Below, piece by piece: positions 2 through 37,455 of a stretch of DNA of 38,346 bases. How positions within the stretch are numbered: position 1 is the first letter of the stretch; each line of letters begins with the position of its first letter. The position numbers were made by a program, and so were the translations under genes. Location of the stretch: assembly GCA_041581895.1 (NCBI GenBank), contig JBFICQ010000002.1, positions 1 to 38,346 on the forward strand, given 5' to 3'. The notes under the pieces were generated by a model. The model saw only the letters and a program-made list of their open reading frames with translations, ran no database searches and had not been told where the DNA came from. Source of the DNA: Polyangiales bacterium. Lineage in GTDB: Bacteria; Myxococcota_A; Polyangia; Polyangiales; Houyiibacteriaceae.

Positions 2-214
2 GTCGTTCAAGCTGAGCATAGCGAAGAGCTTCGAGCTGCGTACGAGGGCGCAAGCTTGTCCTTGGTCGATGGACAACCTTTGATTTGGCTAGCCAAGCTG
101 ATGGGGGAGCCCTTTCCGGAGAACGCATCGGAAGCGGAGCGACGTTGGACTTCATCGCAGCGGCTTCCGCCGGAGGCCCGGGTTCTCGAAGAGCCTCAAA
201 CCGGAGGGCGCTGA
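2..214 (+). pseudogene. WecB/TagA/CpsF-family glycosyltransferase-like fragment (5' end lies outside the window; apparently truncated)
   Basis: Frame 2 reads VVQAEHSEELRAAYEGASLSLVDGQPLIWLAKLMGEPFPE. This matches the remembered N-terminal core of TagA/WecB/CpsF enzymes (..adl.l.DG.PlvWa.rllG.plpeR..G.dl). The frame then stops at 212-214, only about 35 codons after the DGxP motif, although family members are about 250 aa. A weakly TagA-like continuation (ERIGSGATLDFIAAASAGG) sits in frame 1, which implies a frameshift. This ORF is not in the supplied track because it is open at the window edge. Confidence 0.35.
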
Positions 215-1506
215 GAGGGCGGCTGCGATGGCGACTTGGAGGGGTTCGCCCCATTGCCATCGCCTTCCCCGGCTGCCGTCGTGATGCCCCGCGCTGGGCG
301 GGGTGCAGGGGGCACGATGCTTTCCGGTGGAATCGTGGTTCGAAGCATCCGCGTTCCCCAGGGCGCGCGCGCGACCACGAAGACCGACAGCAAGATCAAG
401 ACGAGTACGATCCCAGCCAGCCAGCGATTGGGCTGGCGTTTCTGGAAGACGTCGCCTTGGCCGACCTCGGGTATGCGCCGTGGTGCGATCTCGAGGCCAT
501 ACTCCTCGGCGAGATCGATGATACGGGTCGCGTGAATCGCGGGAACCCCAGACTGGAGAAACGAACCAAGCACCGAAGGCGGCATATCATTGATGCCTTT
601 TGGTGGGCGGCGATTGACGCCCGGCAGGAACTTCCGTTTGCCGACTTTGGTACCTACCGACACCGTACCGCCGCCAACGTTGACATAGGCGCGAATCGTG
701 CGATCTCCGGCGTTTTCGTAATAGACCCGCATGCGCTCCCGCACTCTGTTCTGGTCGATGGGCGCAAGCTCGGGAGGTGGTTTTTCAGCTGTTTCCTCGG
801 TTTGCGCTTGCTCTTCTTCCGACTGAACAACGCCAATGCCCGGGATTTCGTTGCGCTCGATCGCGCGCGTCAGCATTCTGCGGCCGCGCTCGGTGATACC
901 GATCGCCTCGTCACCCACACCTCCCAAAGAGGCGGCCACGGACTTGAACGGGAACACCTCGTTCTTTCGAAGCACCGACTCCATGTCGAGCCAAGTGAAC
1001 CCTGGATTGTTCGCGCCCCACTGCGATGCTGCAGTGCTCGAAATGATGATCGGCTCGATCCCGAGCTCATGGAGCGCGGCATAAACGGAGATGTTCATGG
1101 CGGGAAACGACCCGGATACGCCAACCGCAACGACGTCGCCGCTCTTGAGACCCAAGTCCTTGATCCATTGCACGATAACCGCGGCGAAATTCGGGTTTAC
1201 GCTGGTCTGCTTCGAGACGAGGCTGCCGCTTCCGCTCGTGATCGGCGACAACACCTCACCGATGAGCCTGGACCCCGACGGGTCGGTCTTGGTCTGATCG
1301 CGCAAACCGCGCTTTTCCGAAGCGTCGCGAATCACATCCATCGCCTCTTTGGCGGTGCGGGCGGCGAGCAGCTTCTCCGCGTAGTGAGGCTGCCGTTCTT
1401 CAGACGGAAAGCGCTCGACTGCAACGAGACCGGTAATTGCCAAGGCGGCCACGAGCGCGCGCTGGACCTGGGAGGCGCCCTCCGGCTTCCAATACATCCC
1501 TCTCAT
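196..1506 (-). CDS. Poly-gamma-glutamate system protein (third component of PgsA-less pgsBC loci); N-terminal TM, second TM near the C-terminus, then a Pro-rich tail
   Basis: The 436-aa ORF starts at an ATG that overlaps the pgsC stop (ATGA at 1503-1506). The segment GSFPAMNISVYAALHELGIEPIIISSTAASQWGANNPGFTWLDME matches my memory of the TIGRFAMs 'poly-gamma-glutamate system protein' family, which is found beside pgsB/pgsC. The assignment rests on context plus that remembered motif. Confidence 0.55.
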   Translation of the reverse strand: MRGMYWKPEGASQVQRALVAALAITGLVAVERFPSEERQPHYAEKLLAARTAKEAMDVIRDASEKRGLRDQTKTDPSGSRLIGEVLSPITSGSGSLVSKQTSVNPNFAAVIVQWIKDLGLKSGDVVAVGVSGSFPAMNISVYAALHELGIEPIIISSTAASQWGANNPGFTWLDMESVLRKNEVFPFKSVAASLGGVGDEAIGITERGRRMLTRAIERNEIPGIGVVQSEEEQAQTEETAEKPPPELAPIDQNRVRERMRVYYENAGDRTIRAYVNVGGGTVSVGTKVGKRKFLPGVNRRPPKGINDMPPSVLGSFLQSGVPAIHATRIIDLAEEYGLEIAPRRIPEVGQGDVFQKRQPNRWLAGIVLVLILLSVFVVARAPWGTRMLRTTIPPESIVPPAPRPARGITTAAGEGDGNGANPSKSPSQPPSQRPPV

Positions 1507-1961
1507 ATCGTGATGTCTCCCATGAACAGCACGAGGATCATCCTAACGATAATCGCGGCCGTGACGAGGCTCAAAGTCGTTTCGAGCACGCCCTGGCGTT
1601 GGTACCAAATCGCGATTAGCCCCGGAATAATGAAGCCGATTACGGCAGCCTCGGAGAACGGTGTAATTTGGCTTCCAAGCCACCATCGACAGGCCATACC
1701 GAGTAGGTAACCCACTAGAATCGTGAGCGCTGTACGTCGGCGGCCGTAGACGATCGCGACTTGCGAAAGCCCCTTCAGCACACCGAACGTGAGAAGCGCC
1801 GCCAGCAGTGTGATGGCGACGTCCACGGGCTTGTTCGCATAAATCGCGATGTAACCCGGAACGACCATTCCGCCTGCGGCAATACCGAAGAGCTCACCAT
1901 AGAGAAGACTCGCCGCAAGGCCGAGCCCAATGGACAACGATAGCAACTCAAACTCTGGCAT
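1503..1961 (-). CDS. pgsC: Poly-gamma-glutamate biosynthesis membrane protein PgsC/CapC
   Basis: The product is 152 aa from MPEFELLSLSIGLGLAASLLYGELFGIAAGGMVVPGYIAIY... It is a small polytopic protein of PgsC size and pattern. A GGGGGACGG RBS-like run lies upstream. The gene overlaps the pgsB stop by 14 nt. The track ORF extends to 2024, but that extension lies inside pgsB. Confidence 0.8.
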   Translation of the reverse strand: MPEFELLSLSIGLGLAASLLYGELFGIAAGGMVVPGYIAIYANKPVDVAITLLAALLTFGVLKGLSQVAIVYGRRRTALTILVGYLLGMACRWWLGSQITPFSEAAVIGFIIPGLIAIWYQRQGVLETTLSLVTAAIIVRMILVLFMGDITI

Positions 1962-3144
1962 GTTCCGTCCCCCGATTGGCGAAGTACTCCGCCAGCGCCA
2001 ACCCTGGCCCAGCAATGTTTCCAAGCCCCATCACGAGGGCTGAAGACTCGGCGAGGCCCAGCAGAATTTCAAAAATGTCGGCCGGGTGAGATTGGTCGAC
2101 GAAGACGAGTCGCGTGGGATCGAGCCCACTCTTGACGGCGGCGCGGGCAAAGATGTATTGGCCCGTGCCGAGCAGCACCACTTCGTCGGCCTGCACCCAG
2201 TCCGCATAAGACTCCCCGAGCTGCTTGGACCGGTCCGCACGATCGGCGCGGCAGTTGAAGACCGCGATGCGCCTCTTCAGGTCGCGGTGGCGTTCCAATG
2301 CTTGGTCCCAAATGTATTTGGTTGAAATCGGGTCGTTCGCTGCAAAACCATTGACGAATACGAGCTGCCGGCCGAAAAATTCGATGCTCGCCTCGATCAT
2401 CGCACCCGGATCCGGCTTGGCGCGCCACATCCCTCGAAGGGCGGTCTCGGCATCTACTCCCATCTCGTCGCAGGCGGCGAGGGCGAGCTGGACGTTTTCT
2501 TCGTGCTCCAAATACGAGAAAGCTTCCATATCAAAGTTGGTAATGGGGCGAGTGAGGTCTTGCGCGGCACGAAATCTCGAGCGACGTTCCTCGGCGACCT
2601 GCTGAAAGAACGGACGATGCCTTTTCTCGGCCGTGAGGAACACGCCGTCAAACGGCACAGTCGCGGCCAGGGCCCGGGCGACATCTTCCTCGGTCGGCCC
2701 CATGACATCGAGGTGATCCGGTCGTGCGTTCGTGATGACGCCATGGGTTGCACGGACCAGTTTTGCTTCGGAAAGCCACTGAAGCTGAGGCTGAAGCGCC
2801 ATGCACTCGACGACGAGAGCCTCAGCGCGCTGAGCCGCTGCCATGGTAACCGACTGCTTCTGTTCGATGATGTTGGCGCCTCCCGGCCTGTAGACCGGGA
2901 CTTCGCGCCCGTTCGGCAGGATGAAACGTGGAACGGTTCCCGTCGTCTTGGCAACGCATCGGATACCCGCCTCCCGGAGCCCGGCGGCGATCAGGCGCGT
3001 GACGCTGGTCTTTCCGCGGGTCCCGTTGACGTGGATCCGAATGGGGATCTTGGCCAAACGCCTGCGATGCAGGATGAATTCCAGCGCGCCGAGCAGGGCG
3101 AGCAGCCCGGCGGTCGCTAGGATGATCAGAATCTCTTTCGTCAC
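1948..3144 (-). CDS. pgsB: Poly-gamma-glutamate synthase PgsB/CapB (Mur-ligase-like amide ligase)
   Basis: An N-terminal TM helix is followed by IRIHVNGTRGKTSVTRLIAAGLREAGIRCVAKTTGT (P-loop GTRGKT/S, Mur ligase fold). This is collinear with Bacillus PgsB. I chose the GTG at 3142-3144 (VTKEILIIL...) because it has a GGGGA run 9 nt upstream and gives 398 aa. The open frame continues to a TTG at 3213. Confidence 0.85.
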   Translation of the reverse strand: MTKEILIILATAGLLALLGALEFILHRRRLAKIPIRIHVNGTRGKTSVTRLIAAGLREAGIRCVAKTTGTVPRFILPNGREVPVYRPGGANIIEQKQSVTMAAAQRAEALVVECMALQPQLQWLSEAKLVRATHGVITNARPDHLDVMGPTEEDVARALAATVPFDGVFLTAEKRHRPFFQQVAEERRSRFRAAQDLTRPITNFDMEAFSYLEHEENVQLALAACDEMGVDAETALRGMWRAKPDPGAMIEASIEFFGRQLVFVNGFAANDPISTKYIWDQALERHRDLKRRIAVFNCRADRADRSKQLGESYADWVQADEVVLLGTGQYIFARAAVKSGLDPTRLVFVDQSHPADIFEILLGLAESSALVMGLGNIAGPGLALAEYFANRGTEHARV

Positions 3145-3392
3145 GTGGACGTCCCCGGTCGCGGCCAAAGCCCCGAACGGCGAGCCATGTATCAGCTCGT
3201 CGCGAGGCAGCAACCCTGCTCTTTATCGCTTCGTTCGGGACTCCCGTCTCGTTTTCGGAGCATTTCGAGCCGGGAATCGGGCTCGTAGGATTATAACCCT
3301 AAGAGCCGCATAAATTTGTAATCAAGTGTCTAGGTTCTCAGACAACTGCACCCATAAGGGGCAATAAACACCGAATGGGTGTCCATCGTCCT

Positions 3393-4415
3393 TCACCCTC
3401 GACTGGCCCCCGTGGCTTCTAGGTGTTGGCATGTGCGCTCGATGCCCTCCGCCACGCTCACGGATGGGTTGTAACCGAGGTCGCGGCGGGCTTTCTCAAT
3501 GCTGAAATAGTGGTGCGTACACATATAGCGAATCGCGAAGCGTGTGAGGCCGTCTTCGGCATTCAACGTTCCGCCTTTGAGCGTATCGATGCCCTCCTTC
3601 ACGGCGGCGATCGCGTAAACCAACGACTTGGGCGCGCGATACTTGATCGGCGGGAACCCGAGACGCGCTGCAACCTTCCGAACGAAATCCCAAAACGGCA
3701 TCGGCTCGCCGTTGGTGATGAAATAGGCCTCCCCGGCAGCCACGCTTTCGGGGCCGTCAGCCAGAGCTTCGTCAGCGAGGATCACCGCATCGATGAGGTT
3801 GCTCACAAAGGTGTAGTCCGAGAGCCAAACGCCACGACCCACCTGCACGCGCAGCCGCCCTGATTGCGCCTGCTTTAGAAGGGCCGGCATGAAACGCCGG
3901 TCACCGGGTCCAAAGACGACGTGAGGCCTGAGCGCGGTCGTTGCCACCCCGCGGTTTCCGTTTTCGGCGAGCACATACTTTTCTGCAGCGATCTTGCTGT
4001 CAGCGTAGGGCGCCTGCGAGACCGATGAATACGGCAAGCTTTCGTCGCCGTTTTCGATGTCTTTGCCCTCGTATACGACACTTCCGGAGCTGATGTACAC
4101 GAACCGTTTGACGCCCTGTTGCTGTGCAGCCTGGAGCATGTTCTCGGTGCCGCCGAGGTTCACCGCCCAAACCAAATCTTTCTTGTTTTGCTTGGTATGG
4201 ACGATTGAGGCGTTGTGAATGATCGTATCAACGCCCTCGCAGGCCTCCGTGACCGCGGCCTTGTCGGTGATGTCGATGCGTCGGTAATCGATGCCGTCGA
4301 CCGGACACTTTTCAGCCAAATCGATTCCGATGACTCGATCACCCCGAGCCTTGAGGGCGCGAACGATCTCGGCGCCAACGAACCCGCAGGCGCCCGTAAC
4401 CAAGCTGACCGTCAC
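3393..4415 (-). CDS. 3-beta-hydroxysteroid dehydrogenase/isomerase-family NAD(P) enzyme (ERG26/NSDHL/SdmB-like class)
   Basis: LVTGACGFVGAEIV is a Rossmann GxxGxxG motif and YADSKIAAEKYVL is the catalytic YxxxK. Also present are RPHVVFGPGD and the C-terminal FSIEKARRDLGYNPSVS, typical of the 3Beta_HSD family. The GTG start lies 3 nt after the stop of the upstream hydroxylase. Confidence 0.8.
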   Translation of the reverse strand: MTVSLVTGACGFVGAEIVRALKARGDRVIGIDLAEKCPVDGIDYRRIDITDKAAVTEACEGVDTIIHNASIVHTKQNKKDLVWAVNLGGTENMLQAAQQQGVKRFVYISSGSVVYEGKDIENGDESLPYSSVSQAPYADSKIAAEKYVLAENGNRGVATTALRPHVVFGPGDRRFMPALLKQAQSGRLRVQVGRGVWLSDYTFVSNLIDAVILADEALADGPESVAAGEAYFITNGEPMPFWDFVRKVAARLGFPPIKYRAPKSLVYAIAAVKEGIDTLKGGTLNAEDGLTRFAIRYMCTHHYFSIEKARRDLGYNPSVSVAEGIERTCQHLEATGASRG

Positions 4416-4418
4416 GGT

Positions 4419-5093
4419 CTACTCCACGGTGCCGAAGATGATGTCGGGCAACGGCGTGATCGATGCATAGTTCCCCGAGATCATGCTGTGATGGTGCCGG
4501 TCGTGTTTTGCCGCCAAGATGCCCAATGTTTTGACGGGAAAGTGCGGAATATCGACACCGGCATGGTTGAGGATGTTGAACGCCGTGTATGTGACGAACA
4601 GCACCCCCAACGTGTAGAGATGCACGCCACCCACGAGCGCGACCGATCCGAAGAACAAGGAAAGCCCCATGAAGGTTTCGACCGGGTGGAGCAGCAGACT
4701 GTCGATTACTCGGGGGTTGCGAGCTGCATGATGCACTGAGTGAACGCCGCGGAGGATTTTCCACTCGTGAAAGAGGTACCGATGCATGAAGTAGTACCCG
4801 AAATCGTAGATCAAGATTACGGTTACAGCCTCCAGCACGAAGCGCCAAGCGGGAATGGCGTGGTCGTAATAGAGGTAGTCGCCTAGCCCGTACATCACGC
4901 CAAAAATGAGCGCGATCGAGACTGTGCTGTTCAAGACGACCCTCCAGCTGAGCTCGCGATCGGTCGCCGAGCGGTGCGGATCGTCGCTGATCAAGAAGTC
5001 TTGCGCGCGCTCGGAGCGATATGCGTACAGCAAGAGGGCGATCGCGAGGCCTGCCGAAGCGTAGCTTGCGAGTATGACGATCAGGACCTTCAT
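4419..5093 (-). CDS. Fatty-acid-hydroxylase-superfamily membrane di-iron oxygenase (sterol desaturase / C-4 methyl oxidase class)
   Basis: The 224-aa protein has about 4 TM helices and three His boxes: HRYLFH, HSVHH and HDRHHH. This is the HX3-4H / HX2HH / HX2HH signature of the ERG3/ERG25/SMO/CrtZ-type enzymes. Confidence 0.75.
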   Translation of the reverse strand: MKVLIVILASYASAGLAIALLLYAYRSERAQDFLISDDPHRSATDRELSWRVVLNSTVSIALIFGVMYGLGDYLYYDHAIPAWRFVLEAVTVILIYDFGYYFMHRYLFHEWKILRGVHSVHHAARNPRVIDSLLLHPVETFMGLSLFFGSVALVGGVHLYTLGVLFVTYTAFNILNHAGVDIPHFPVKTLGILAAKHDRHHHSMISGNYASITPLPDIIFGTVE

Positions 5094-5120
5094 CGGAATG
5101 TCTGTGAGCTCATTGTAAAC

Positions 5121-6284
5121 CTACTGAACCAATCTGAGAACTAGCGTGCCCGCCACCATGAAGGCGAACACCGCGACCGCCGCCAGTTGAGAAGCCCGCC
5201 GGCCATACGAGGACTTGACCGCCGAGGGGGCCCGAAACGACGTGGAGTCCGCATCGAGCTCCAGTGGCTCGCTGCTCGCGGGGATGCTCTGGCAAAGGAG
5301 AGCCACCCCTTTTGCGATGTCTCGCGCGGAGAGCGCTTCGTGCGTGCGCATGTGGACTCGGCCGCTTCTGACGTGGGCCATGCACGATCCGCAGTAGCCC
5401 GACTCACACGAATGCCCGGGATTCAAGCCAGCCGCCTGTGCACATTCGAGTAGGGTTTTGCCTCGCTCGTACGGAACGGTCCGCGAACGGCCCTGGAGCC
5501 AGAGGCTGAACTTGTCGGGTGCTTCGAACGATTTGACGTCGAGCAGGCGGCGCTCTGTTCGGTCGGGATCGGCGGGCGACACGAATCGCTCGACGTACAC
5601 CAACTCGTCGTGTACCCCGGCTTTACCGAGGGTGTCTTCGACGAGCTCCATGAAAGCCGCTGGGCCGCAAAGATAGAACTCCGCGATGTCGGTGTCATGC
5701 AGGTACTGATGCAACGTCTCGGAAGTGAGATAACCGCTCTCGGAGTCGTAGTGCCGGTGCACGACTAGACGTTCGGGATACTTGCGGATGAGCCGTTCGA
5801 TCTCGTCTGCATAAATGACTGAGTCACGGCGTTGGTTTGCGTAGACGAGGGTGATCGGCCGTTTGGTTGTTACCAAGGCGCTCTTCAGTAAGGAAATGAT
5901 TGGTGTAATCCCGCTTCCGCCAGCATACAGAAACAATGGCGCACTCGAACGGGTCTTCCGGTCTAAAACGAAGCGTCCCTCGGGAACGCTTGCCCGAATC
6001 GTGTCGCCTACGGCGAGATTGTCGTTCATCCAGTTTGAGACTCGACCTCCTTCGACTCGTTTGACCGCGATTTTCGGGGCCTCACCGAGCTCCGGACAAC
6101 TGGACAGGGAGTAGCACCTCGTGACCGCGAAGCCGTTCCAGGGAAGCTCGAAGGTGAGGTGCTGACCGGCTTTGTAGCGGTAGGCGTCTCGAAGCGCAGC
6201 CGGCACCGACAGCTCGAACGAGGTGCAGTCGGCTGTCTCTCGGATCACTGCCGCGATCTCGAGGTCATGGAACTCGACGCTCAT
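5121..6284 (-). CDS. Three-domain oxygenase reductase (FAD/NAD ferredoxin-reductase fold plus C-terminal plant-type 2Fe-2S), KshB/PaaE-like, with a C-terminal TM tail anchor
   Basis: RCYSLSS is the RxYS FAD motif, YAGGSGITP is the NAD motif, and CESGYCGSCMAHV...LLCQS is the Cx4Cx2C...C 2Fe-2S motif. After the ferredoxin domain the protein ends with SQLAAVAVFAFMVAGTLVLRLVQ, a hydrophobic helix. The ATG overlaps the tetR stop (ATGA at 6281-6284). The track ORF's N-terminal extension to 6416 lies inside tetR. Confidence 0.8.
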   Translation of the reverse strand: MSVEFHDLEIAAVIRETADCTSFELSVPAALRDAYRYKAGQHLTFELPWNGFAVTRCYSLSSCPELGEAPKIAVKRVEGGRVSNWMNDNLAVGDTIRASVPEGRFVLDRKTRSSAPLFLYAGGSGITPIISLLKSALVTTKRPITLVYANQRRDSVIYADEIERLIRKYPERLVVHRHYDSESGYLTSETLHQYLHDTDIAEFYLCGPAAFMELVEDTLGKAGVHDELVYVERFVSPADPDRTERRLLDVKSFEAPDKFSLWLQGRSRTVPYERGKTLLECAQAAGLNPGHSCESGYCGSCMAHVRSGRVHMRTHEALSARDIAKGVALLCQSIPASSEPLELDADSTSFRAPSAVKSSYGRRASQLAAVAVFAFMVAGTLVLRLVQ

Positions 6285-6967
6285 GCCCCCTCTTCCAAGC
6301 AGGCCGACTCGAGAACAGCGCCAAGCCGTTCGGGCTTGCAGTAGCTGCGAAGCATGTGCCGAATCGCCTGATTCGCGACCAGTCGAGGAGCCTCTTTGGC
6401 GCCTCGGTCCATCCACATCGCAAGCCTCACTTGTTGGGATGCGATCACGGTTCTCGCCATGAGCTGCGGATCGTCATCGATGAAATAACCATCTTCGATG
6501 CAACGACGAAACATGTCGGCGAAAAGCTCAAGACCAGCGCCAAGCGCTTCGACTTGTTCGGGGCTTCGAAGAAGCTCGATCGTCGACCATGCCGTGACCT
6601 CTTTGAGCTGCATCCGTAGGAAGTCGCGGCGCTTCATGAAAAATGCGAGCTGCATTCGGGTTCCCGCAATGAGCGTCTCGATCGATGGCGCGCCTTCTCG
6701 AAGAATGCCTTGGGCGAGCGCCATGACCTCGCTGAGGCGGCGGCGGTTGACGGCACGGTAGATTTCCCACTTCGATTCGAAGACGCTGTAGAGCGTCGTC
6801 AGGGATAGGCCCGCCTCGGCCGCCACGCGCTGTACCTTCGTCGCCTCGTACCCCACCTCGCCGAATACCCGCTCGGCCGCGTCCAGCACAGCCTCGCGGT
6901 AGAGCTCGCGCTTCTTGTCTTTGAGGCTTTCCTGGGCTTTGTGCTTGGTTTTCGCGGCCGAAATCAA
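6281..6967 (-). CDS. TetR/AcrR-family transcriptional regulator
   Basis: The N-terminal HTH reads RELYREAVLDAAERVFGEVGYEATKVQRVAAEAGLSLTTLYSVFESKWEIY. It is the first gene of the reductase-hydroxylase-3bHSD operon. The only in-frame start at the 5' end is a TTG (6965-6967). Confidence 0.85.
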   Translation of the reverse strand: MISAAKTKHKAQESLKDKKRELYREAVLDAAERVFGEVGYEATKVQRVAAEAGLSLTTLYSVFESKWEIYRAVNRRRLSEVMALAQGILREGAPSIETLIAGTRMQLAFFMKRRDFLRMQLKEVTAWSTIELLRSPEQVEALGAGLELFADMFRRCIEDGYFIDDDPQLMARTVIASQQVRLAMWMDRGAKEAPRLVANQAIRHMLRSYCKPERLGAVLESACLEEGA

Positions 6968-6969
6968 GA

Positions 6970-7033
6970 CTCAGAATGATAGTAAACAAAATCAGAATGT
7001 CAATTCTGAGCTCGGCTAGCGCGCTAGAATGTC
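6970..7033. promoter_or_regulatory. Divergent promoter/operator region with TCAGAAT repeats and a perfect palindrome
   Basis: TCAGAATG occurs at 6971-6978. The palindrome TCAGAAT-gtca-ATTCTGA lies at 6992-7009. A further copy, TAGAATGTC, lies at 7025-7033 (8/9 identical to CAGAATGTC at 6993-7001). On the minus strand, TTGACA (6998-7003), a 16-nt spacer and TATCAT (6976-6981) form a near-consensus sigma70-like promoter that ends about 8 nt from the tetR TTG. On the plus strand, TAGAAT (7025-7030) lies 7 nt before the ATG at 7038. Confidence 0.55.
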
Positions 7034-8316: not shown

Positions 8317-9129
8317 CTACTTTCCTCGGTCGAGCGCCGCGAGGCCGCGCTTTTCGGCACCATCCAGCCCGCGCGCCAGCAGGCCGGGAAACAACCCGAG
8401 CACTCGGATGAGCTTTCCCCGCGTCGCAGGCACGAGCACCTCGCGGCGGGGCTCGGCGATCACCCGTATGACCTCGCGTGCGAAACTCTCAGGGGGCATC
8501 GCCTTCTCTGTGAAGACGACCACGCCAGCGCGTTTCTCTCGCATGCTTTGGAGCATCGGCGTTTCGACCGCGCTCGGGCAGGCCACTGTCCAGTGAATCG
8601 GTGAGTGGCGATGATCCATCGCGCAGCTATGCGTGTAGGCGCGTACGGCATGCTTGCTGGCGCAATACGCGGCGAGCTCAGGCGAAGGAGCGAACGCCGC
8701 CATGCTCGCGACATTGATGAAGTGCCCTCGTTCACGCTTCAAGAAACGGGGAAGGAGGGTACGCACACCGTGCAACACCCCCATCAAGTTGACCTCGATC
8801 GTGAGGCGATCGTCGTCCGAAGACACTTGGTCACATCGGCCGGGCAGGCATACTCCTGCATTGTTGATCAACACGTCGATCGGTCCACCCTTCGTTTCTG
8901 TTCCACTGACCACTCGATCCCACATTCTCAAATCGCGCACGTCTAGGGTGGCGGTTTCGGTGCCCGGAAGCTCGGTGCGAAGGCGCGCGAGGGCGTCCGA
9001 ATCGACGTCGGTCGCAATGACCGAATGACCCGCTTCGCGGCAAAGACGCGTGATCGCGGCACCGATCCCGTTTGCGCCTCCCGTCACGAGCACTCGTTTG
9101 GTCGATGAGGTCACGCCCAAGGCCCCCAT
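8317..9129 (-). CDS. Short-chain dehydrogenase/reductase (SDR)
   Basis: VLVTGGANGIGAAI is the TGxxxGxG motif. NNAGV and YCASKHAVRAY (YxxxK) are also present. An alternative GTG start at 9114 would give a GTGA overlap with the upstream SDR stop. Confidence 0.8.
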   Translation of the reverse strand: MGALGVTSSTKRVLVTGGANGIGAAITRLCREAGHSVIATDVDSDALARLRTELPGTETATLDVRDLRMWDRVVSGTETKGGPIDVLINNAGVCLPGRCDQVSSDDDRLTIEVNLMGVLHGVRTLLPRFLKRERGHFINVASMAAFAPSPELAAYCASKHAVRAYTHSCAMDHRHSPIHWTVACPSAVETPMLQSMREKRAGVVVFTEKAMPPESFAREVIRVIAEPRREVLVPATRGKLIRVLGLFPGLLARGLDGAEKRGLAALDRGK

Positions 9130-9980: not shown

Positions 9981-10004
9981 GCCCTGCTCCACGTTTTGCC
10001 GCCT

Positions 10005-11303
10005 ATGGCGGAGCGTGCTACGCGACGCAACCCGGTGGGGCGCGGAGCCTCCGCCGTGCTTGGGTCCCAAGTGCCACCTCCACCGCCACATCGCACCCGC
10101 TTGATTCGGCTGCTCAACGGCATCGGAGGTGTGATCACACCTAGCTGGCCCTCGCTCGACTCGGAAGGCATCGTCCGCGCCGCCAAGCGCAAGGCCAAAT
10201 CCGAGGAGGTCGGAGACGAAAGCTTTTTGCAGGCCCTTCCGATTCTGCTCGAAACGGTGGAGCGCGAGGCACAACTCACTTGGATCGGTCGCGTGGCCTG
10301 CCGCCAGTCATTCGTCATGGCGCTCGAAAGCCGATTCGGTATCTACAGGCATCGAGCGCGGCATCCCGAGATCGTAGGCGTGCCGATTGAGCGGCCGATC
10401 TTCATCGTCGGATTCCCTCGGAGCGGTACGACCATCCTTTTCAACCTGCTCGCTCAAGACCCTGCGAACCGAGCCCCGCTCGGTTGGGAAACGCAGTTTC
10501 CCAACCCGCCGCCCGAGACCACGACCTATATGACCGATCCGCGCATCGAGAAAGCGCGCAAGTATTTCGGCCGGATGGATGCAATGGCCCCATCACTGGC
10601 GTCGATTCACGAGGTAGGCGCCGAGCTTCCGCAAGAATGTATGCCGATTTTGGCACACAGCATGCTCAGCCCTCAGGCAAGCATCGCTTTTAACGTGCCG
10701 AGCTATCAACGCTGGGTCGACGACCAAGACGCTGCGCCGGCGTACGCCTATCATCGGCACTTCCTCGAGCACCTTCAGAGTCGCCACATGAAGAAACGAT
10801 GGGTGCTCAAGAGCCCCGTGCACCTCGCAACCCTCGATGCCCTGTTGGATGAATACCCCGATGCTCGACTGATTTTCACGCACCGAGACCCCGCAAGGAC
10901 GATCCCTTCGCTTGCGAGCCTGGTCTACACCGTGCGAGGGATCGTCACCGACGCGGTCGACCCGAAGAAAGTCGGCCCGGAGCAATTCGACTGGTGGGCA
11001 AAGTCGCTCGATCACGCAATGCAGGTGCGCGATCGGCACGCAGACAAGTCCGACCAGTTCATGGACATTCAGTTCGAAGAGGTGATCGCCGATCCGGTTG
11101 CCGCGCTGGCGCGCGTGTACGATCGCTTCGGCATTCCGTGGTCGGATGAGGTCGAGAGCCGGATGCGGACGTTCTTAGCCGAAAATCCACGCGGCAAGCA
11201 TGGCTCTCATCACTACGAGCTCGAGGATTTCGGAATCGAGCTAGCGCAGATCCGCGAGCGGTTCGCGGCTTACTGTCGAGCCTTCGAGATCGCCGTTGCG
11301 TGA
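10005..11303 (+). CDS. PAPS-dependent sulfotransferase-family protein (Sulfotransfer_3-like)
   Basis: IVGFPRSGTTILFNLL is the 5'-PSB loop and RLIFTHRDPARTIPSLASL is the 3'-PB region. The N-terminal DESFLQALPILLETVEREAQLTWIGR is typical of bacterial members. The start is uncertain. The ATG at 10005 is only 24 nt from the divergent SDR start, so a later GTG is possible. Confidence 0.7.
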   Translation: MAERATRRNPVGRGASAVLGSQVPPPPPHRTRLIRLLNGIGGVITPSWPSLDSEGIVRAAKRKAKSEEVGDESFLQALPILLETVEREAQLTWIGRVACRQSFVMALESRFGIYRHRARHPEIVGVPIERPIFIVGFPRSGTTILFNLLAQDPANRAPLGWETQFPNPPPETTTYMTDPRIEKARKYFGRMDAMAPSLASIHEVGAELPQECMPILAHSMLSPQASIAFNVPSYQRWVDDQDAAPAYAYHRHFLEHLQSRHMKKRWVLKSPVHLATLDALLDEYPDARLIFTHRDPARTIPSLASLVYTVRGIVTDAVDPKKVGPEQFDWWAKSLDHAMQVRDRHADKSDQFMDIQFEEVIADPVAALARVYDRFGIPWSDEVESRMRTFLAENPRGKHGSHHYELEDFGIELAQIRERFAAYCRAFEIAVA

Positions 11304-12952
11304 GTCGCAGCCGCGCCACCGGCGTTGACATCGTCGAGGCGAATGCTACGCGAAATGCGATGACTGTTCCGGTTCACCGGGAGCGCAGAGCGGCAGCAAC
11401 CGAAGAGCCGACTCACATTCCCTGCACCGACCCCGCGACCAGGGAACGACTCGGTGACATACGCATCGATACCTCTGCAGACGTCGATGCCGCCATCGTC
11501 CGTGCCAAAGCAGCTCAGCGCGAGTGGCGCCAGACTTCTTTGGAGGAGCGCCGCGCGTTGTTGCGCAAGTTGCTCGCGTATACCGTCGACAACAAAAACG
11601 AGATTTGCCTGACGATTCAGCGTGACTCGGGCAAAACCCGCGAGAACGCTCTAATCGGAGAGATTTGGACTACCTGCGAGAAGTTCCGGTGGATGATCAA
11701 CAACGGCGAAAAGTACCTTCGTCCTGAGCGGGTTTCATCGGGGCTCCTGCTGCACAAGAAGGCGCAACTCGAGTTTCATCCGCTCGGTATCGTCGCCTCG
11801 ATCATTCCCTGGAACTATCCTTTTCAGAACATCGTCAACCCGATCATCCCAGCGTTGATGGCCGGCAACGCGATCGTGATCAAGCCTTCGGAATGGGTGG
11901 CGTGGTCGAGCGAACGATTCATCGAGGCCTTTCGTGGCGTGATCGAAGACGCTGGGTACAATCCCGATCTCATTCAGGCAGTGCAAGGCTATGGAGCAAC
12001 AGGAGCTGCACTCGTTCGGTCCGCTGTCGACATGATTCTTTTCATAGGCTCGGTCGAGAATGGGCGCCGGGTCATCGAAGGGAGCTCGCAGCGCACGACG
12101 CCCGTAGTGATGGAGCTCGGGGGCAAAGACGCCTTCATCGTCTGCGAAGATGCCGATCTCGAACAAGCTGTTCATGCTTCGCTGGCTGGTTGCTACGTCA
12201 ACTGCGGTCAAAACTGCGTGGCAGCCGAGCGCTTACTCGTGCATGACGCCATCTATGATGCCTTTGAAACGCGCGCTGCCGAGCTCGTCAAAGACTTCCG
12301 ACAGGGCAACGGCCGCGAAGCCCTTGTTGACGTCGGTGCCATCGTCACACCGCTCCAGCTCGAGATTATCGACAAGGCAGTCCAAGGCGCGATCGCCCAA
12401 GGTGCACGGTTGGTGCTCGGCGGCAAGCGAACGTTCGCCGACAAAGGCGACTACTTCGAGCCAACAATCCTGGCGGATGTCACCCCTGACATGGACATCG
12501 CACGAGAAGAAGTTTTCGGCCCAGTCATGCTTCTCATGCGCGTTCGTGACGACGAGCATGCAATCGAGGTTGCCAACGGTGTTTCTTACGGGCTTTCTTC
12601 TTCCGTCTTTTCGAAGAATCGTCGGCGCGCACGAGAGATCGCATCGAAGCTCGAGGCGGGAATGAGCGCGATCAACGAGTTCGGCGGCATCACGTACATG
12701 GCACAGGACCTCACCTTTGGAGGCGTGAAAGCTTCAGGCTACGGGCGAATGAACGGTCGGGAAGGGCTCCGTTCGATGTGCAACATCAAGGCGGTCATCG
12801 ACGATCGTTTCCCGATCAACCGGGCCAACAAGATGTTCCCCGTCGGACCTCGGCTCTACGGCACCCTTAGCGGCATGATCGACCTGATTTACGGGACGGG
12901 TTTCGCGCGGCGTTGGCAAGGGTTGGTGAGGCTTTTCAGCCGCAAGCCATGA
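11300..12952 (+). CDS. NAD(P)-dependent aldehyde dehydrogenase
   Basis: VMELGGKDAFIV contains the catalytic Glu region and NCGQNCVAAERLLV contains the catalytic Cys. EEVFGPV is also present. The GTG start overlaps the sulfotransferase stop (GTGA at 11300-11303). An alternative ATG lies at 11360. Confidence 0.8.
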   Translation: MSRSRATGVDIVEANATRNAMTVPVHRERRAAATEEPTHIPCTDPATRERLGDIRIDTSADVDAAIVRAKAAQREWRQTSLEERRALLRKLLAYTVDNKNEICLTIQRDSGKTRENALIGEIWTTCEKFRWMINNGEKYLRPERVSSGLLLHKKAQLEFHPLGIVASIIPWNYPFQNIVNPIIPALMAGNAIVIKPSEWVAWSSERFIEAFRGVIEDAGYNPDLIQAVQGYGATGAALVRSAVDMILFIGSVENGRRVIEGSSQRTTPVVMELGGKDAFIVCEDADLEQAVHASLAGCYVNCGQNCVAAERLLVHDAIYDAFETRAAELVKDFRQGNGREALVDVGAIVTPLQLEIIDKAVQGAIAQGARLVLGGKRTFADKGDYFEPTILADVTPDMDIAREEVFGPVMLLMRVRDDEHAIEVANGVSYGLSSSVFSKNRRRAREIASKLEAGMSAINEFGGITYMAQDLTFGGVKASGYGRMNGREGLRSMCNIKAVIDDRFPINRANKMFPVGPRLYGTLSGMIDLIYGTGFARRWQGLVRLFSRKP

Positions 12953-14538
12953 TCGAGACCTTCGACTACATCGTGGTCGGTGGCGGATCCGCAGGATGCA
13001 TCGTCGCGGCTGAGCTCGCGAAAGACCCGGGCGCACGCATTCTCTTGCTCGAGGCGGGTCCGACTGCGGAAGAACACCCGGAGACATTGATTGCCAGCGG
13101 GTACAAAGAGGCGTTCATCAATGATGCGGTGATGGGAGAGCGGTTTTCCGTCCCGCAACCGCATGCCGCAAAGCAGCGCGTCTTCGCCGGCACTGGCACG
13201 GTTATGGGCGGGAGCGGGTCCGTGAACGGAATGGTTTACACCCGAGGGGCGCGTGAAGACTACGCGCAGTGGCCCGACGGGTGGCACTGGGAAGACAACC
13301 TCGCCGACTTCGAGGCCATCGAGAAGACCCTCCGCCCACATCGGCGACCTCCCACCCTCTGGACAGAGGCGTGCATCGAGTCAGCCGAGGAAAACGGATT
13401 CGAGCGCAAGGAAGACCTGAACGATGGCAACATGAGCAATGTCATTGGCTACGAATGGATGTCGTACGAGGGCGACGACCGCCGAAGCTCTTACGTTGCC
13501 TTCATCAAGGATGCAGGCGGGCGCGAGAACCTCATGGTGTTGCCTCGGGCTCGCGCTCATCGGGTCGTCTTCACGTCGGACAAGCGTGCCCGAGCCGTCG
13601 AGTTCGAGCACGAAGGAGAGCTCAAGCGCGCAGCCGCCGATCGCGAAATCGTTCTATGCGCCGGAGCGCTCGAAACGCCGAAGCTCTTGCTTCTTTCCGG
13701 TGTCGGTCCGAGCGATCACCTTCGCGCGTTCGACATCCCGATCGTCGCGGACCGTCCCTCTGTTGGAAGTCGACTTCACGATCACCCGAATGTCCCAATC
13801 TTCTTCAAGTCGGCAAAAGACATCGATTGCTTCTACCCACAGCTGTATAGCTTCTACAGAACCAATCAGGAGAGCGACCTTCCTCCTTCGCAAAGCGATA
13901 CCTGTTACGTCTACTGGCCAGCCCCCTCCGCCATGAAGCAGATGGCACAACGCATGCTTCCGCCACAGGTCATTCCTCACGCGTTGTATGGTCCGCGTTC
14001 GAGGGCGATCATCCGCACCATGATCGGTGCGGCATTCAAGATCGGTGCGCTCCGACGCTTCACCGATCACATGTTCGGAATCATTCTAATCCTGGGGAAA
14101 CCCAAGAGCCGCGGTACACTTCGCTTGCAATCGACGGACGCGACCGTGCAAGCGTCGATCGACCCCGCCTATTATTCTGACCCGGAGGACATCGCAACGA
14201 TGATCAAAGGCGTTCGCATCGCGAAAAGAATCGGCGGCGCAAAGGCGCTCGCTGCATGGGGCGCGAAAGAGCTGATGCCAGGGAAGCGAGTCACTAGCGA
14301 TCGAGCGATTGAAAGCTACGTTCGCAAGAACACGATCACCACGTATCACTTCGCCGGGTCCTGCGGCATGGGCGCCAATCATTCCGACGCGGTGGACACC
14401 CAGCTACGTCTTCGAGGCGTGACAGGGCTCCGCATCGCTGACGCATCTGCGATCCCCTGGACTCCGGTTTCCGCCCTCAACGCTCCTAGCATGTTGATCG
14501 GGCATCGCGCTGCGCGACTCATTCGCAACGTGCATTGA
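12949..14538 (+). CDS. GMC-family FAD oxidoreductase (choline dehydrogenase / alcohol or sterol oxidase superfamily)
   Basis: FDYIVVGGGSAGCIVAAELAKDPGARILLLEAG is the FAD ADP-binding motif. The C-terminal TTYHFAGSCGMG...LRGVTGLRIADASAIP is the GMC signature with the active-site His. The ATG overlaps the ALDH stop (ATGA at 12949-12952). Confidence 0.85.
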   Translation: MIETFDYIVVGGGSAGCIVAAELAKDPGARILLLEAGPTAEEHPETLIASGYKEAFINDAVMGERFSVPQPHAAKQRVFAGTGTVMGGSGSVNGMVYTRGAREDYAQWPDGWHWEDNLADFEAIEKTLRPHRRPPTLWTEACIESAEENGFERKEDLNDGNMSNVIGYEWMSYEGDDRRSSYVAFIKDAGGRENLMVLPRARAHRVVFTSDKRARAVEFEHEGELKRAAADREIVLCAGALETPKLLLLSGVGPSDHLRAFDIPIVADRPSVGSRLHDHPNVPIFFKSAKDIDCFYPQLYSFYRTNQESDLPPSQSDTCYVYWPAPSAMKQMAQRMLPPQVIPHALYGPRSRAIIRTMIGAAFKIGALRRFTDHMFGIILILGKPKSRGTLRLQSTDATVQASIDPAYYSDPEDIATMIKGVRIAKRIGGAKALAAWGAKELMPGKRVTSDRAIESYVRKNTITTYHFAGSCGMGANHSDAVDTQLRLRGVTGLRIADASAIPWTPVSALNAPSMLIGHRAARLIRNVH

Positions 14539-19599: not shown

Positions 19600-19663
19600 C
19601 GATGGTCGGAAGCTAGAATAGGATTCTTTCTCTTTGCAACTTTGTTTTATGCTCCCTGCAAGC

Positions 19664-37386: not shown

Positions 37387-37455
37387 CACTCCTCCTTCAT
37401 CCCCTCGGGATGGAGTTCCTCACCGAGATTCCTGCTGCAATAACCAAGCCATCCG

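What the first reader, a model, noticed from the sequence alone, without database searches (positions are those of the whole stretch)
3393..6967. Self-sufficient operon: tetR, a tail-anchored FNR/2Fe-2S reductase, a di-iron hydroxylase and a 3beta-HSD
The four genes are tightly coupled. There is an ATGA overlap at 6281-6284, a 27-nt gap, and then a 3-nt gap.

Eukaryotic SMO/ERG25/ERG3-type di-iron enzymes take electrons from membrane-anchored cytochrome b5 and b5 reductase. Here the hydroxylase is preceded by a KshB/PaaE-architecture reductase (FAD, NAD and plant-type 2Fe-2S domains). Unusually, that reductase carries an extra C-terminal hydrophobic helix (SQLAAVAVFAFMVAGTLVLRLVQ, encoded at about 5124-5192), which makes it a tail anchor analogous to those of b5 and b5 reductase.

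This suggests a bacterial solution for delivering electrons to a membrane di-iron sterol oxidase. The adjacent 3beta-HSD/decarboxylase-class enzyme would complete a C-4 demethylation-like (oxidise then decarboxylate) or 3-OH oxidation module. The same reductase could also serve the Rieske oxygenase 13 kb away, which has no reductase of its own.
Basis: partly seen in the sequence, partly recalled or inferred. Interest (0 to 1): 0.65.

Follow-up and report, generated by a model that had tools for sequence, protein, structure and literature searches.

The report
Membrane-anchored reductase feeding a sterol-linked oxygenase
An uncultured marine myxobacterium carries a regulated gene set in which a membrane iron oxygenase has its own membrane-tethered electron donor and a decarboxylating dehydrogenase partner; with two nearby oxidases this most likely removes methyl groups from carbon 4 of sterols by a route not yet described.

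Summary
Four minus-strand genes (tetR, FNR/[2Fe-2S] reductase, FA_hydroxylase, 3beta-HSD-like SDR) are joined by an ATGA overlap, a 27-nt gap and a 3-nt gap.

The reductase's extra C-terminal helix is real. It is the protein's only hydrophobic segment. It is kept in 53 of 54 orthologues, including ones 43-46% identical whose tail sequence differs. It is absent from a 47%-identical paralogue that lies beside a Rieske oxygenase. The 54th orthologue is an in-frame reductase-tail-hydroxylase fusion, seen in independently assembled metagenomes. The reductase is therefore the hydroxylase's dedicated, membrane-anchored donor.

A sterol substrate rests on context:
- The SDR's best solved relative is human NSDHL.
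- Orthologues of the hydroxylase and of the window's GMC oxidase and aldehyde dehydrogenase lie beside squalene synthase, squalene epoxidase, oxidosqualene cyclase (OSC) and CYP51 in other Polyangia.
- Outside this genus, hydroxylase carriers nearly always have a cyclase.

This genome cleanly lacks the cyclase cassette but keeps CYP51- and ERG24-type genes, so it probably remodels scavenged sterols.

I read the module as a split C-4 methyl oxidation and decarboxylation. This is inferred, not shown. The suggestion that the reductase also serves the distant Rieske oxygenase is weakened.

The parts
6281..6967 (-). TetR-family regulator, first gene of the operon
   Evidence: TetR_N at 48 bits. No NCBIfam equivalog is reached. 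It is conserved upstream of the reductase in most of the related loci.
6976..7003 (-). sigma-70-like promoter before tetR (TTGACA, 16 nt, TATCAT)
   Evidence: 11 of 12 consensus matches. This is a pattern match only.
5121..6284 (-). NAD(P)H-dependent FAD/[2Fe-2S] reductase, 387 aa, with a C-terminal membrane anchor
   Evidence: FAD_binding_6, NAD_binding_1 and Fer2 domains. The RxYS motif, GGSGITP and Cys293/298/301/331 are invariant. The best NCBIfam match is PaaE at 236 bits, below its cut-off of 420.8.
5130..5201 (-). C-terminal tail helix of the reductase (residues 362-385)
   Evidence: Kyte-Doolittle 2.28, the only hydrophobic segment in the protein. AlphaFold2 models a helix at 362-385 after a disordered linker at 345-361. 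The tail is kept in 53 of 54 orthologues. It is retained between the two enzymes in the natural fusion L069.
4419..5093 (-). small (224 aa) membrane di-iron oxygenase of the FA_hydroxylase superfamily
   Evidence: PF04116 at 87.9 bits. His104, 109, 118, 121, 122, 177, 197, 200 and 201 are invariant. AlphaFold2 pLDDT is 85.6 with five long hydrophobic helices. The only fold match is Scs7p.
3393..4415 (-). NSDHL/ERG26-like 3beta-hydroxysteroid dehydrogenase-family SDR
   Evidence: PF01073 at 203 bits. The best solved relative is human NSDHL (6jkg) at E 2e-39 and 139 bits, against 73 bits for the next hit. G8xxG11xxG14 and Y137xxxK141 can be read in the sequence. OleD scores 247 bits and SdmB 93 bits, both below their cut-offs.
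11300..12952 (+). aldehyde dehydrogenase, conserved companion of the module
   Evidence: Aldedh at 444 bits. Orthologues at 52-88% identity lie next to the hydroxylase gene in most loci, including the OSC/CYP51 clusters.
12913..14538 (+). GMC-family FAD oxidoreductase (alcohol oxidation), conserved companion; the true start may be the ATG at 12949
   Evidence: GMC_oxred_N and GMC_oxred_C. Orthologues at 55-89% identity travel with the ALDH and the hydroxylase.
8317..9129 (-). classical SDR, candidate 3-ketoreductase (weakly linked)
   Evidence: adh_short at 154 bits. An orthologue lies near the module in a subset of loci only.

Best explanation
The operon encodes a two-protein membrane monooxygenase and the next enzyme of its pathway, under a TetR repressor.

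Electron delivery:
- The reductase takes two electrons from NAD(P)H through FAD to its plant-type [2Fe-2S] cluster.
- Its catalytic domains sit in the cytoplasm.
- A flexible linker of about 17 residues and a single C-terminal transmembrane helix (N-in, C-out) tether them to the inner membrane.
- There the reductase reduces the di-iron centre of the five-helix FA_hydroxylase-type oxygenase directly.
- It thus replaces the eukaryotic pair of cytochrome b5 and b5 reductase with one polypeptide.

Most likely pathway:
1. The oxygenase hydroxylates a sterol C-4 methyl group.
2. The conserved GMC oxidoreductase takes the alcohol to the aldehyde.
3. The conserved aldehyde dehydrogenase takes the aldehyde to the 4-carboxylate.
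4. The NSDHL-like SDR, co-translated with the oxygenase, oxidises the 3beta-hydroxyl so that the beta-keto acid loses CO2.
5. A neighbouring SDR may re-reduce C-3.

This species lacks squalene epoxidase and oxidosqualene cyclase, so the substrates would be sterols taken from the environment or from prey. That fits substrate-responsive TetR control.

What is shown: gene structure, domains, cofactor motifs, tail conservation, the fusion, synteny and co-occurrence.
What is inferred: membrane insertion, direct electron transfer, sterol as the substrate, C-4 as the position, and the division of labour among the three oxidases.

My odds:
- Reductase and hydroxylase partnership with a membrane anchor: about 0.85-0.9.
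- Sterol substrate: about 0.65.
- C-4 methyl removal specifically: about 0.5.
For: Partnership:
- In 54 related loci a reductase orthologue lies directly upstream of the hydroxylase gene. 53 of them carry a hydrophobic C-tail, including five at 43-46% identity whose tail sequences differ while hydrophobicity is kept.
- A further divergent pair behaves the same way.
- In L069 the two proteins are one 641-aa ORF that keeps the tail helix between them.
- The fusion junction is identical, with no gaps, in contigs assembled independently from four activated-sludge runs of at least three studies.
- The predicted hydroxylase topology is N-terminus out, with the His boxes after helix 3 on the cytoplasmic side. 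That makes the fusion viable only if the tail crosses the membrane.
- The same genome has a tail-less 47%-identical paralogue beside a Rieske gene.

Catalytic competence:
- The FAD, NAD and [2Fe-2S] motifs and all nine His ligand positions are invariant.

Sterol link:
- The SDR's best solved relative is NSDHL.
- In three other Polyangia genomes the order is HMG-CoA reductase, FAD enzyme, squalene epoxidase, oxidosqualene cyclase (OSC), squalene epoxidase, squalene synthase, hydroxylase orthologue, CYP51-ferredoxin, then ALDH and GMC orthologues.
- Outside the window's genus, 19 of 20 hydroxylase-positive genomes have a cyclase, against 37 of 112 hydroxylase-negative ones.
- No genome of the genus has a high-scoring SdmA, and five OSC-positive members have no SdmA-like gene at all, yet all 19 have this operon.
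- The window's genome keeps a CYP51-like P450 and a full-length ERG4/ERG24-family reductase.
Against: - No biochemical evidence exists for any step.
- The hydroxylase belongs to a small, isolated subfamily: 131 representatives at E <= 1e-10 among 1.84 billion proteins.
- Its only named sequence neighbours are OlsE at 26 bits and Scs7p at 13 bits. Relatedness to ERG25 rather than to other lipid hydroxylases is therefore untested.
- The SDR scores higher against the OleD model (247 bits) than against SdmB (93 bits).
- This genome and 10 of the 18 other genomes sampled from its genus lack a cyclase.
- The operon sits among catabolic-looking genes: an extradiol dioxygenase, Rieske oxygenases and TetR control.
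- Eight cyclase-positive genomes carry both a high-scoring SdmA and the hydroxylase, so the two are not cleanly complementary.
- In the more distant loci the hydroxylase has no adjacent reductase.
- The co-occurrence test is not corrected for phylogeny.
Confidence: 0.55

Rival explanations
1. The same two-component membrane monooxygenase acts on sterols at another position. Examples are a side-chain terminal methyl (C-26/27) taken to the acid by the GMC enzyme and ALDH, C-25 hydroxylation as by the di-iron enzyme CH25H, or a ring desaturation as by ERG3.
For: - The sterol context is the same as for the main reading.
- Lee et al. 2023 (PMC10202945) state that the bacterial C-25 hydroxylase is unidentified and that myxobacteria use SdmA/B/C for C-4.
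- The window's genome also has an SdmA-like Rieske gene at 245 bits.
Against: - The oxygenase is translationally linked (3-nt gap) to an NSDHL-like enzyme, whose chemistry is oxidation of a beta-hydroxy acid followed by decarboxylation. That fits C-4 and not the side chain.
- No acyl-CoA ligase or beta-oxidation genes accompany the module.
- A desaturase would not need the GMC enzyme and the ALDH.
Confidence: 0.17
2. The module is a catabolic omega-oxidation system for a non-sterol lipid or hydrocarbon (alkane, isoprenoid, ether lipid or wax). In function it parallels AlkB, AlkJ and AlkH: a hydroxylase with its reductase, a GMC alcohol dehydrogenase and an ALDH. The SDR would act on a beta-keto or beta-hydroxy acid, as OleD does.
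For: - TetR control, with GMC and ALDH as in the alk pathway (established knowledge).
- The SDR's best NCBIfam score is OleD at 247 bits.
- The genome lacks a cyclase.
- The neighbours include an extradiol dioxygenase, a hydrolase, P450s and Rieske genes in related contigs.
Against: - Orthologues of the hydroxylase, ALDH and GMC enzyme sit inside a biosynthetic SQS-SE-OSC-CYP51 cluster.
- There is a strong association with cyclase-bearing genomes.
- The window's genome keeps CYP51- and ERG24-type sterol genes.
- The OleD score is far below its cut-off of 580.
Confidence: 0.15
3. The reductase is KshB, the partner of the KshA-like Rieske oxygenases as JGI annotates it, and its position next to the hydroxylase is incidental.
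For: - JGI names many orthologues '3-ketosteroid 9alpha-monooxygenase subunit B'.
- The domain order is that of KshB.
- A Rieske/KshA_C gene lies at 19634-20674.
Against: - The tail helix is present only in the hydroxylase-linked copies.
- There is a natural fusion to the hydroxylase.
- A separate soluble paralogue lies beside a Rieske gene on contig C81.
- Adjacency to the hydroxylase is kept through rearrangements of all the other neighbours.
Confidence: 0.03
4. The hydroxylase modifies the cell's own membrane lipids or pigments (ornithine lipid, ceramide or carotenoid hydroxylation).
For: - The only NCBIfam match is OlsE, at E 4e-6 and 26 bits.
- The only structural relative is the ceramide fatty-acid hydroxylase Scs7p.
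- The size is similar to that of CrtZ (established knowledge).
Against: - Both matches are at the level of superfamily membership only.
- No lipid- or carotenoid-synthesis genes are linked in any of 80 loci.
- The conserved companions are NSDHL-like, GMC and ALDH enzymes.
- The regulation resembles that of a substrate-inducible pathway.
Confidence: 0.05

Closest known systems
Eukaryotic sterol C-4 demethylation complex: ERG25/MSMO1 (FA_hydroxylase di-iron oxidase), ERG26/NSDHL and ERG27/HSD17B7, with electrons from cytochrome b5 and b5 reductase
   Same: - A membrane di-iron FA_hydroxylase-superfamily oxygenase sits next to an NSDHL-like decarboxylating 3beta-HSD.
- The electron donor is held at the membrane by a hydrophobic anchor, as tail-anchored cytochrome b5 is.
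   Different: - The donor is a single FNR-type FAD/[2Fe-2S] protein and there is no haem b5.
- The oxygenase is much shorter (224 aa) and not demonstrably orthologous to ERG25.
- A GMC oxidase and an ALDH travel with it, which suggests the three oxidations are split among three enzymes instead of being done by one.
- It is TetR-regulated, and it is present in a species with no sterol cyclase.
Bacterial SdmA/SdmB(/SdmC) C-4 demethylation (Methylococcus, Enhygromyxa, Calothrix; PMC10202945)
   Same: - The proposed overall reaction is the same.
- Both are found in sterol-handling bacteria, including Myxococcota.
- Both include an SDR-type decarboxylase/reductase.
   Different: - The oxygenase there is a soluble Rieske enzyme, not a membrane di-iron enzyme.
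- The window's SDR scores only 93 bits against a cut-off of 600 on the SdmB model, and the window's Rieske gene only 52 against 600 on SdmA.
Bacterial membrane di-iron oxygenases with dedicated donors: XylM/XylA, AlkB with rubredoxin and rubredoxin reductase (including natural AlkB-rubredoxin fusions, PMC10113152), and DesA3/Rv3230c
   Same: - A histidine-rich integral-membrane di-iron enzyme is reduced by an NAD(P)H-dependent flavin/iron-sulfur protein encoded beside it.
- Natural fusions occur.
- AlkJ (GMC family) and AlkH (ALDH) complete the oxidation to the acid.
   Different: - The oxygenase superfamily differs: FA_hydroxylase rather than AlkB/desaturase.
- I know of no description of a C-terminal transmembrane tail on reductases of this domain order (from memory, not tested).
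- The context here is sterol genes, not alkane or aromatic catabolism.
KshB / PaaE / phthalate dioxygenase reductase-type oxidoreductases
   Same: - The domain order is FAD_binding_6, NAD_binding_1, C-terminal plant-type Fer2, with the same cofactor motifs.
- PaaE is the best NCBIfam match.
   Different: - The PaaE score is below the equivalog cut-off (236 against 420.8).
- There is an extra linker and transmembrane helix.
- The partner is a membrane di-iron enzyme, not a soluble Rieske or BMC-type oxygenase.

Membership tests
FA_hydroxylase superfamily (PF04116) | Profile match above the curated cut-off | tested here: met
   87.9 bits against a cut-off of 31, covering residues 90-222.
FA_hydroxylase superfamily (PF04116) | Histidine boxes HX3-4H, HX2HH and HX2HH that bind the di-iron centre | tested here: met
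   H104/H109, H118/H121/H122, H177 and H197/H200/H201 are invariant in 37 relatives down to 28% identity.
FA_hydroxylase superfamily (PF04116) | Integral-membrane helical fold like Scs7p | tested here: met
   The AlphaFold2 model has pLDDT 85.6. Foldseek returns Scs7p chains only, at probability 0.97-1.00 and TM-score 0.43-0.46; all other hits are noise.
ERG25/MSMO1 sterol C-4 methyl oxidase | Orthology to ERG25 rather than to other FA_hydroxylase subfamilies | not testable with these tools
   No reference ERG25, ERG3, CH25H or CrtZ sequences could be fetched. There is no solved structure. The only named hits are OlsE at 26 bits and Scs7p at 13 bits.
ERG25/MSMO1 sterol C-4 methyl oxidase | Electrons supplied by cytochrome b5 | tested here: not met
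   The adjacent, and in one case fused, donor is an FNR/[2Fe-2S] reductase.
ERG25/MSMO1 sterol C-4 methyl oxidase | Oxidises 4-methylsterols to 4-carboxysterols | not testable with these tools
   This needs an enzyme assay. The only support is context, namely the OSC/CYP51 clusters and the NSDHL-like neighbour.
ERG26/NSDHL (sterol-4alpha-carboxylate 3-dehydrogenase, decarboxylating) | Closest characterised relative, extended-SDR 3beta-HSD fold, with GxxGxxG and YxxxK | tested here: met
   The best solved relative is 6jkg NSDHL at E 2e-39 and 139 bits, against 73 bits for the next hit. PF01073 scores 203 bits. G8/G11/G14 and Y137/K141 are in the sequence. Decarboxylase activity itself is untested.
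SdmB (bacterial sterol demethylase reductase) | NCBIfam equivalog score | tested here: not met
   93 bits against a cut-off of 600.
OleD (2-alkyl-3-oxoalkanoate reductase) | NCBIfam equivalog score | tested here: not met
   247 bits against a cut-off of 580. No oleABC genes are seen in the 80 related loci.
KshB/PaaE-type FNR-[2Fe-2S] reductases | Domain order FAD, NAD, C-terminal plant-type ferredoxin, with RxYS, GGSGITP and Cx4Cx2C...C | tested here: met
KshB/PaaE-type FNR-[2Fe-2S] reductases | Equivalog score, and a soluble protein partnered with a Rieske or Paa oxygenase | tested here: not met
   PaaE scores 236 bits against a cut-off of 420.8. There is an extra transmembrane tail. The partner is the hydroxylase. 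The soluble paralogue is on contig C81.
Tail-anchored membrane proteins | A single transmembrane segment within about 30 residues of the C-terminus and no other hydrophobic segment | tested here: met
   Helix at 362-385 of 387 residues. It is the only Kyte-Doolittle peak and is conserved in 53 of 54 orthologues.
Tail-anchored membrane proteins | Actual insertion into the membrane | not testable with these tools
   This is inferred from the topology of the fusion. Fractionation or reporter fusions are needed.

The most novel reading that the evidence does not exclude
This is a further, independently evolved bacterial route for sterol C-4 demethylation, built on a di-iron FA_hydroxylase.
- The oxygenase has its own tail-anchored FAD/[2Fe-2S] reductase and does only the first hydroxylation.
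- A GMC oxidase and an aldehyde dehydrogenase finish the oxidation.
- An NSDHL-like enzyme decarboxylates.
- In cyclase-less members of the genus, together with CYP51- and ERG24-type enzymes, the module remodels 4-methyl or 14-methyl sterols scavenged from eukaryotes. That would be bacterial sterol salvage rather than synthesis or degradation.
Probability: 0.35. Interest if true: 0.8.

Novelty: new variant of a known kind. Interest (0 to 1): 0.62.

Why it matters
How membrane di-iron sterol and lipid oxygenases obtain electrons in bacteria, which lack the cytochrome b5 system, is poorly documented. This locus offers a compact two-protein system, and a natural single-chain fusion, that could be expressed and assayed directly.

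If the sterol C-4 reading holds, it adds another route to a step already known to have evolved several times: ERG25-27, SdmAB, SdmABC, and CYP5122A1 in Leishmania. It would also bear on the disagreement over whether myxobacteria have 'eukaryote-like' C-4 enzymes. PMC8237579 says they do; PMC10202945 found none in E. salina.

The set of post-cyclisation sterol genes in a genome without a cyclase also makes bacterial sterol scavenging in marine sediments a testable idea. That bears on how sterane biomarkers are read.

Tried and rejected
- The search for related loci with the wide 37-sequence alignment failed for lack of a conserved stretch. A narrower 9-sequence alignment worked.
- A block alignment meant to let AlphaFold2 model the natural fusion was unusable. 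MAFFT stretched the reductase rows over the hydroxylase half. I modelled the two proteins separately instead.
- The last homologue search, run with the fusion protein, found no second fusion, and did not find the fusion protein itself. The fusion therefore rests on one population, although it is seen in several runs.
- Sequence searches of solved structures gave nothing for the hydroxylase alone and only a marginal Scs7p match with a profile. The subfamily could not be placed relative to ERG25, ERG3, CH25H or CrtZ.
Exact look-up did not find them either. That claim stays untested here.
- NCBIfam gave no equivalog for the ALDH, the GMC enzyme, the sulfotransferase or the neighbouring SDRs.
- I considered a choline-to-betaine reading (BetI, BetA, BetB and GbcB-like). 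I dropped it because all scores are far below the cut-offs and the context is sterol genes.
- Two literature searches for tail-anchored ferredoxin reductases or bacterial FA_hydroxylase donors returned nothing relevant.
- The supplement of PMC8237579, which might list the 'ERG25' accessions, is not held.
- A clean either/or distribution of SdmA and this hydroxylase was not found. Among cyclase-positive genomes outside the genus, 8 have both and 18 have neither.

Full report
**Observation**

The window (38.3 kb, about 60% G+C) comes from a 3.5-Mb metagenome-assembled genome. Close relatives of its proteins are named Myxococcales or Polyangiales MAGs, among them SG8_38.

Four minus-strand genes are arranged exactly as described:
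- tetR, 6281-6967
- reductase, 5121-6284
- FA_hydroxylase, 4419-5093
- 3beta-HSD-family SDR, 3393-4415

They are joined by an ATGA overlap at 6284-6281, a 27-nt gap and a 3-nt gap. The three enzyme products occur letter for letter as gene calls in the public collection. A strong sigma-70-like promoter precedes tetR, and no terminator-like site interrupts the four genes.

**The reductase tail**

The canonical FAD_binding_6, NAD_binding_1 and Fer2 domains end near residue 339. Residues 362-385 form the only hydrophobic segment of the protein, with a 19-residue Kyte-Doolittle score of 2.28.

AlphaFold2, run with a 27-sequence alignment (mean pLDDT 83), gives compact domains to about residue 344. 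A low-confidence linker follows at 345-361, then a single 24-residue helix.

All 120 best homologues (at least 71% identical; 113 of them exactly 387 aa) carry the tail. More telling is a scan of one genome per species, which returned 80 loci encoding relatives of the hydroxylase:
- 54 of these loci have a reductase orthologue immediately upstream.
- 53 of the 54 have a hydrophobic C-tail.
- Five of them are only 43-46% identical, and their tail sequences are unrelated to the window's while hydrophobicity is preserved.
- A further divergent pair on a short metagenome contig behaves the same way.

Within the window's own genome, a 47%-identical paralogue (contig C81) stops right after the ferredoxin domain. 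It lies about 550 bp from a KshA-like Rieske gene. So the tail marks the copy that is linked to the membrane enzyme.

**A natural fusion**

The 54th orthologue (L069, a MAG from activated sludge) is a single 641-aa ORF. It runs reductase, tail helix, about 15 residues, then hydroxylase.

The junction is present without any gap or mismatch in contigs assembled independently from four sequencing runs of at least three studies. It is therefore not an error peculiar to one assembly. I found no second fusion lineage.

The hydroxylase model (pLDDT 85.6) has five long hydrophobic helices. A charged loop follows helix 1, and the His boxes come after helix 3 and after helix 5. With the His boxes cytoplasmic, as in this superfamily, the N-terminus is outside. 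A cytoplasmic reductase can then be fused to it only if the tail crosses the membrane.

Together with the strict adjacency, this makes the reductase the dedicated, membrane-anchored donor of the hydroxylase. I put this at about 0.85-0.9.

Both proteins look catalytically intact. RxYS, GGSGITP and the four cluster cysteines are invariant in the reductase. Nine histidines are invariant in the hydroxylase.

**What the hydroxylase is**

It belongs to the FA_hydroxylase superfamily by profile, by motif and by fold. Scs7p is the only structural match.

It sits in a small, isolated subfamily: 131 representatives at E <= 1e-10 among 1.84 billion, nearly all about 225 aa. The genomes that carry it are almost all Myxococcota.

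No characterised family is close. NCBIfam gives only OlsE at 26 bits. Solved structures give only Scs7p at 13 bits.

**Conserved companions**

Across the 80 loci the hydroxylase travels with:
- the NSDHL-like SDR
- a TetR regulator
- orthologues of the window's aldehyde dehydrogenase (11300-12952) and GMC oxidoreductase (about 12949-14538)

This holds where gene order is rearranged and where the reductase is absent.

The SDR's best solved relative by a wide margin is human NSDHL, the decarboxylating sterol-4alpha-carboxylate 3-dehydrogenase: 139 bits against 73 for the next hit. By NCBIfam it is nearer to OleD (247 bits) than to SdmB (93 bits), both below their cut-offs. NSDHL and OleD both act on alpha-substituted beta-hydroxy or beta-keto acids (established knowledge).

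The set of a hydroxylase, an alcohol oxidase, an aldehyde dehydrogenase and a beta-hydroxy-acid dehydrogenase/decarboxylase is the chemical logic of removing a methyl group next to a hydroxylated carbon.

**Link to sterols**

I first gave the sterol reading low odds. The genome has no squalene-hopene or oxidosqualene cyclase, and the neighbours look catabolic.

The cluster:
- In three large Polyangia genomes of another family, hydroxylase orthologues (34-37% identity) lie in a cluster.
- The order is HMG-CoA reductase (fused to an SDR), an FAD enzyme, squalene epoxidase, oxidosqualene cyclase, a second epoxidase, squalene synthase, hydroxylase, P450-ferredoxin, ALDH (52-53% to the window's) and GMC (55%).
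- The P450 is CYP51. Its best solved relative is the Methylococcus CYP51-ferredoxin fusion at 516 bits.

Co-occurrence, in a sample of 151 genomes of the order:
- 19 of 20 hydroxylase-positive genomes outside the window's genus have a cyclase.
- 37 of 112 hydroxylase-negative genomes have one.
- Fisher's test gives p = 1.4e-7, not corrected for phylogeny.

Other co-occurrence results:
- SDR orthologues at 54-68% identity occur in 8 of 11 hydroxylase-positive genomes tested and in neither of two negative ones.
- High-scoring SdmA orthologues (at least 330 bits) are absent from all 19 genomes of the window's genus.
- Five cyclase-positive members of the genus have no SdmA-like gene at E <= 1e-40, while all 19 have this operon.
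- Eleven cyclase-positive genomes elsewhere have the hydroxylase but no high-scoring SdmA, including the two with the best-resolved cluster.
- The two systems are not cleanly exclusive, because eight genomes have both.

**This genome lacks the cyclase for real**

In a same-genus genome, a 10-kb cassette holding oxidosqualene cyclase, HMG-CoA reductase, squalene synthase and squalene epoxidase lies between flanks that are only 30 bp apart on contig C11 of the window's genome. Only 8 of 19 genomes of the genus have a cyclase, and several that lack it are nearly closed assemblies.

The window's genome nevertheless keeps:
- a P450 that is 53% identical to the cluster CYP51
- a full-length ERG4/ERG24-family sterol reductase, a family that matched none of 14 control genomes
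- an SdmA-like Rieske gene at 245 bits

So it has post-cyclisation sterol enzymes without a way to make the first sterol. That points to uptake and remodelling, or partial breakdown, of foreign sterols. It also fits TetR control.

**Mechanism proposed**

1. NAD(P)H passes electrons to FAD and then to the [2Fe-2S] cluster of the tethered reductase.
2. The cluster reduces the di-iron centre of the hydroxylase, and O2-dependent hydroxylation of a sterol C-4 methyl follows.
3. The GMC enzyme forms the aldehyde.
4. The ALDH forms the 4-carboxylate.
5. The NSDHL-like SDR oxidises the 3-hydroxyl, and CO2 is lost.
6. An SDR reduces the 3-ketone.

Only the gene-level facts are shown. Membrane insertion, direct electron transfer, the substrate, the position attacked and the split of the three oxidations are all inferred. 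My odds are about 0.65 for sterol as the substrate and about 0.5 for C-4 removal.

**Rivals**

- Oxidation of another sterol position. PMC10202945 notes that the bacterial C-25 hydroxylase is unknown.
- An AlkB/AlkJ/AlkH-like catabolic system for a non-sterol lipid.
- A KshB role for the Rieske oxygenases.
- Modification of the cell's own lipids or pigments.

**Comparison with the literature**

- Lee et al. 2023 found no ERG25-27 homologues in Enhygromyxa salina and showed that SdmA/B/C do the job there.
- The 2024-25 study of Sandaracinaceae and Polyangiaceae likewise assigns C-4 demethylation to SdmAB.
- Hoshino and Gaucher 2021 report ERG25-27 homologues in myxobacteria from sequence alone and say nothing about electron donors.
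- I found no paper describing the tail-anchored reductase, the fusion, or the hydroxylase-GMC-ALDH-NSDHL-like set.
- Another agent of this scan reached the same model on a related operon in another genome. That is not independent evidence.

**Verdict**

The core of the interpretation, a dedicated membrane-tethered donor for a di-iron enzyme and probably a sterol C-4 module, is supported by comparative evidence but not by biochemistry. The biosynthetic framing and the shared-reductase idea are not supported for this genome. I class it as a new variant of known kinds, with interest 0.62.

Noticed in passing
own genome contig C11:2567-2597, compared with L105:8550-18646 (a same-genus genome): A 10-kb cassette carrying oxidosqualene cyclase, HMG-CoA reductase, squalene synthase and squalene epoxidase is a clean presence/absence polymorphism within the genus. 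Only 8 of 19 genomes have a cyclase.
   Followed up: partly
own genome C4:34437-35765, C31:15443-16750, C143:135-536 and C236:4282-5301: A genome without a cyclase still encodes a CYP51-like P450 (53% identical to a cluster CYP51), ERG4/ERG24-family sterol reductases and an SdmA-like Rieske oxygenase (245 bits). This is a post-cyclisation sterol toolkit with no means of making the protosterol.
   Followed up: partly
L069:5774-7696: A natural in-frame fusion of the reductase, its tail helix and the hydroxylase (641 aa) occurs in an activated-sludge Myxococcales population. It is reproduced in contigs from four runs.
   Followed up: yes
L101:16280-18793 and L099:1423-3936: In large Polyangia genomes, HMG-CoA reductase is fused to a C-terminal 3beta-HSD/epimerase-type SDR domain (837 aa). 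This lies at the edge of a sterol gene cluster that also has two squalene-epoxidase paralogues.
   Followed up: no
   Followed up: partly
window 9735-14538: The sulfotransferase, ALDH and GMC oxidoreductase genes are joined by 4-nt overlaps. The sulfotransferase stays near the module in many same-genus loci, which hints at a sulfated end product.
   Followed up: partly
window 196-3213: A poly-gamma-glutamate synthesis set (PgsB at 460 bits, PgsC, and a 'poly-gamma-glutamate system protein') lies directly downstream of the operon. It is syntenic in close relatives.
   Followed up: no
window 31900-37389: A nitrous-oxide reductase cluster (nosZ with propeller and cupredoxin domains, nosD, an ABC ATPase and permease, and nosL) lies at the far end of the window.
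   Followed up: no
reductase residues 344-350 and 384 (window about 5133-5255): Asp344, Phe350 and Arg384 are invariant even in the divergent tails and linkers. They may mark a docking or positioning element between the reductase and the hydroxylase.
   Followed up: no
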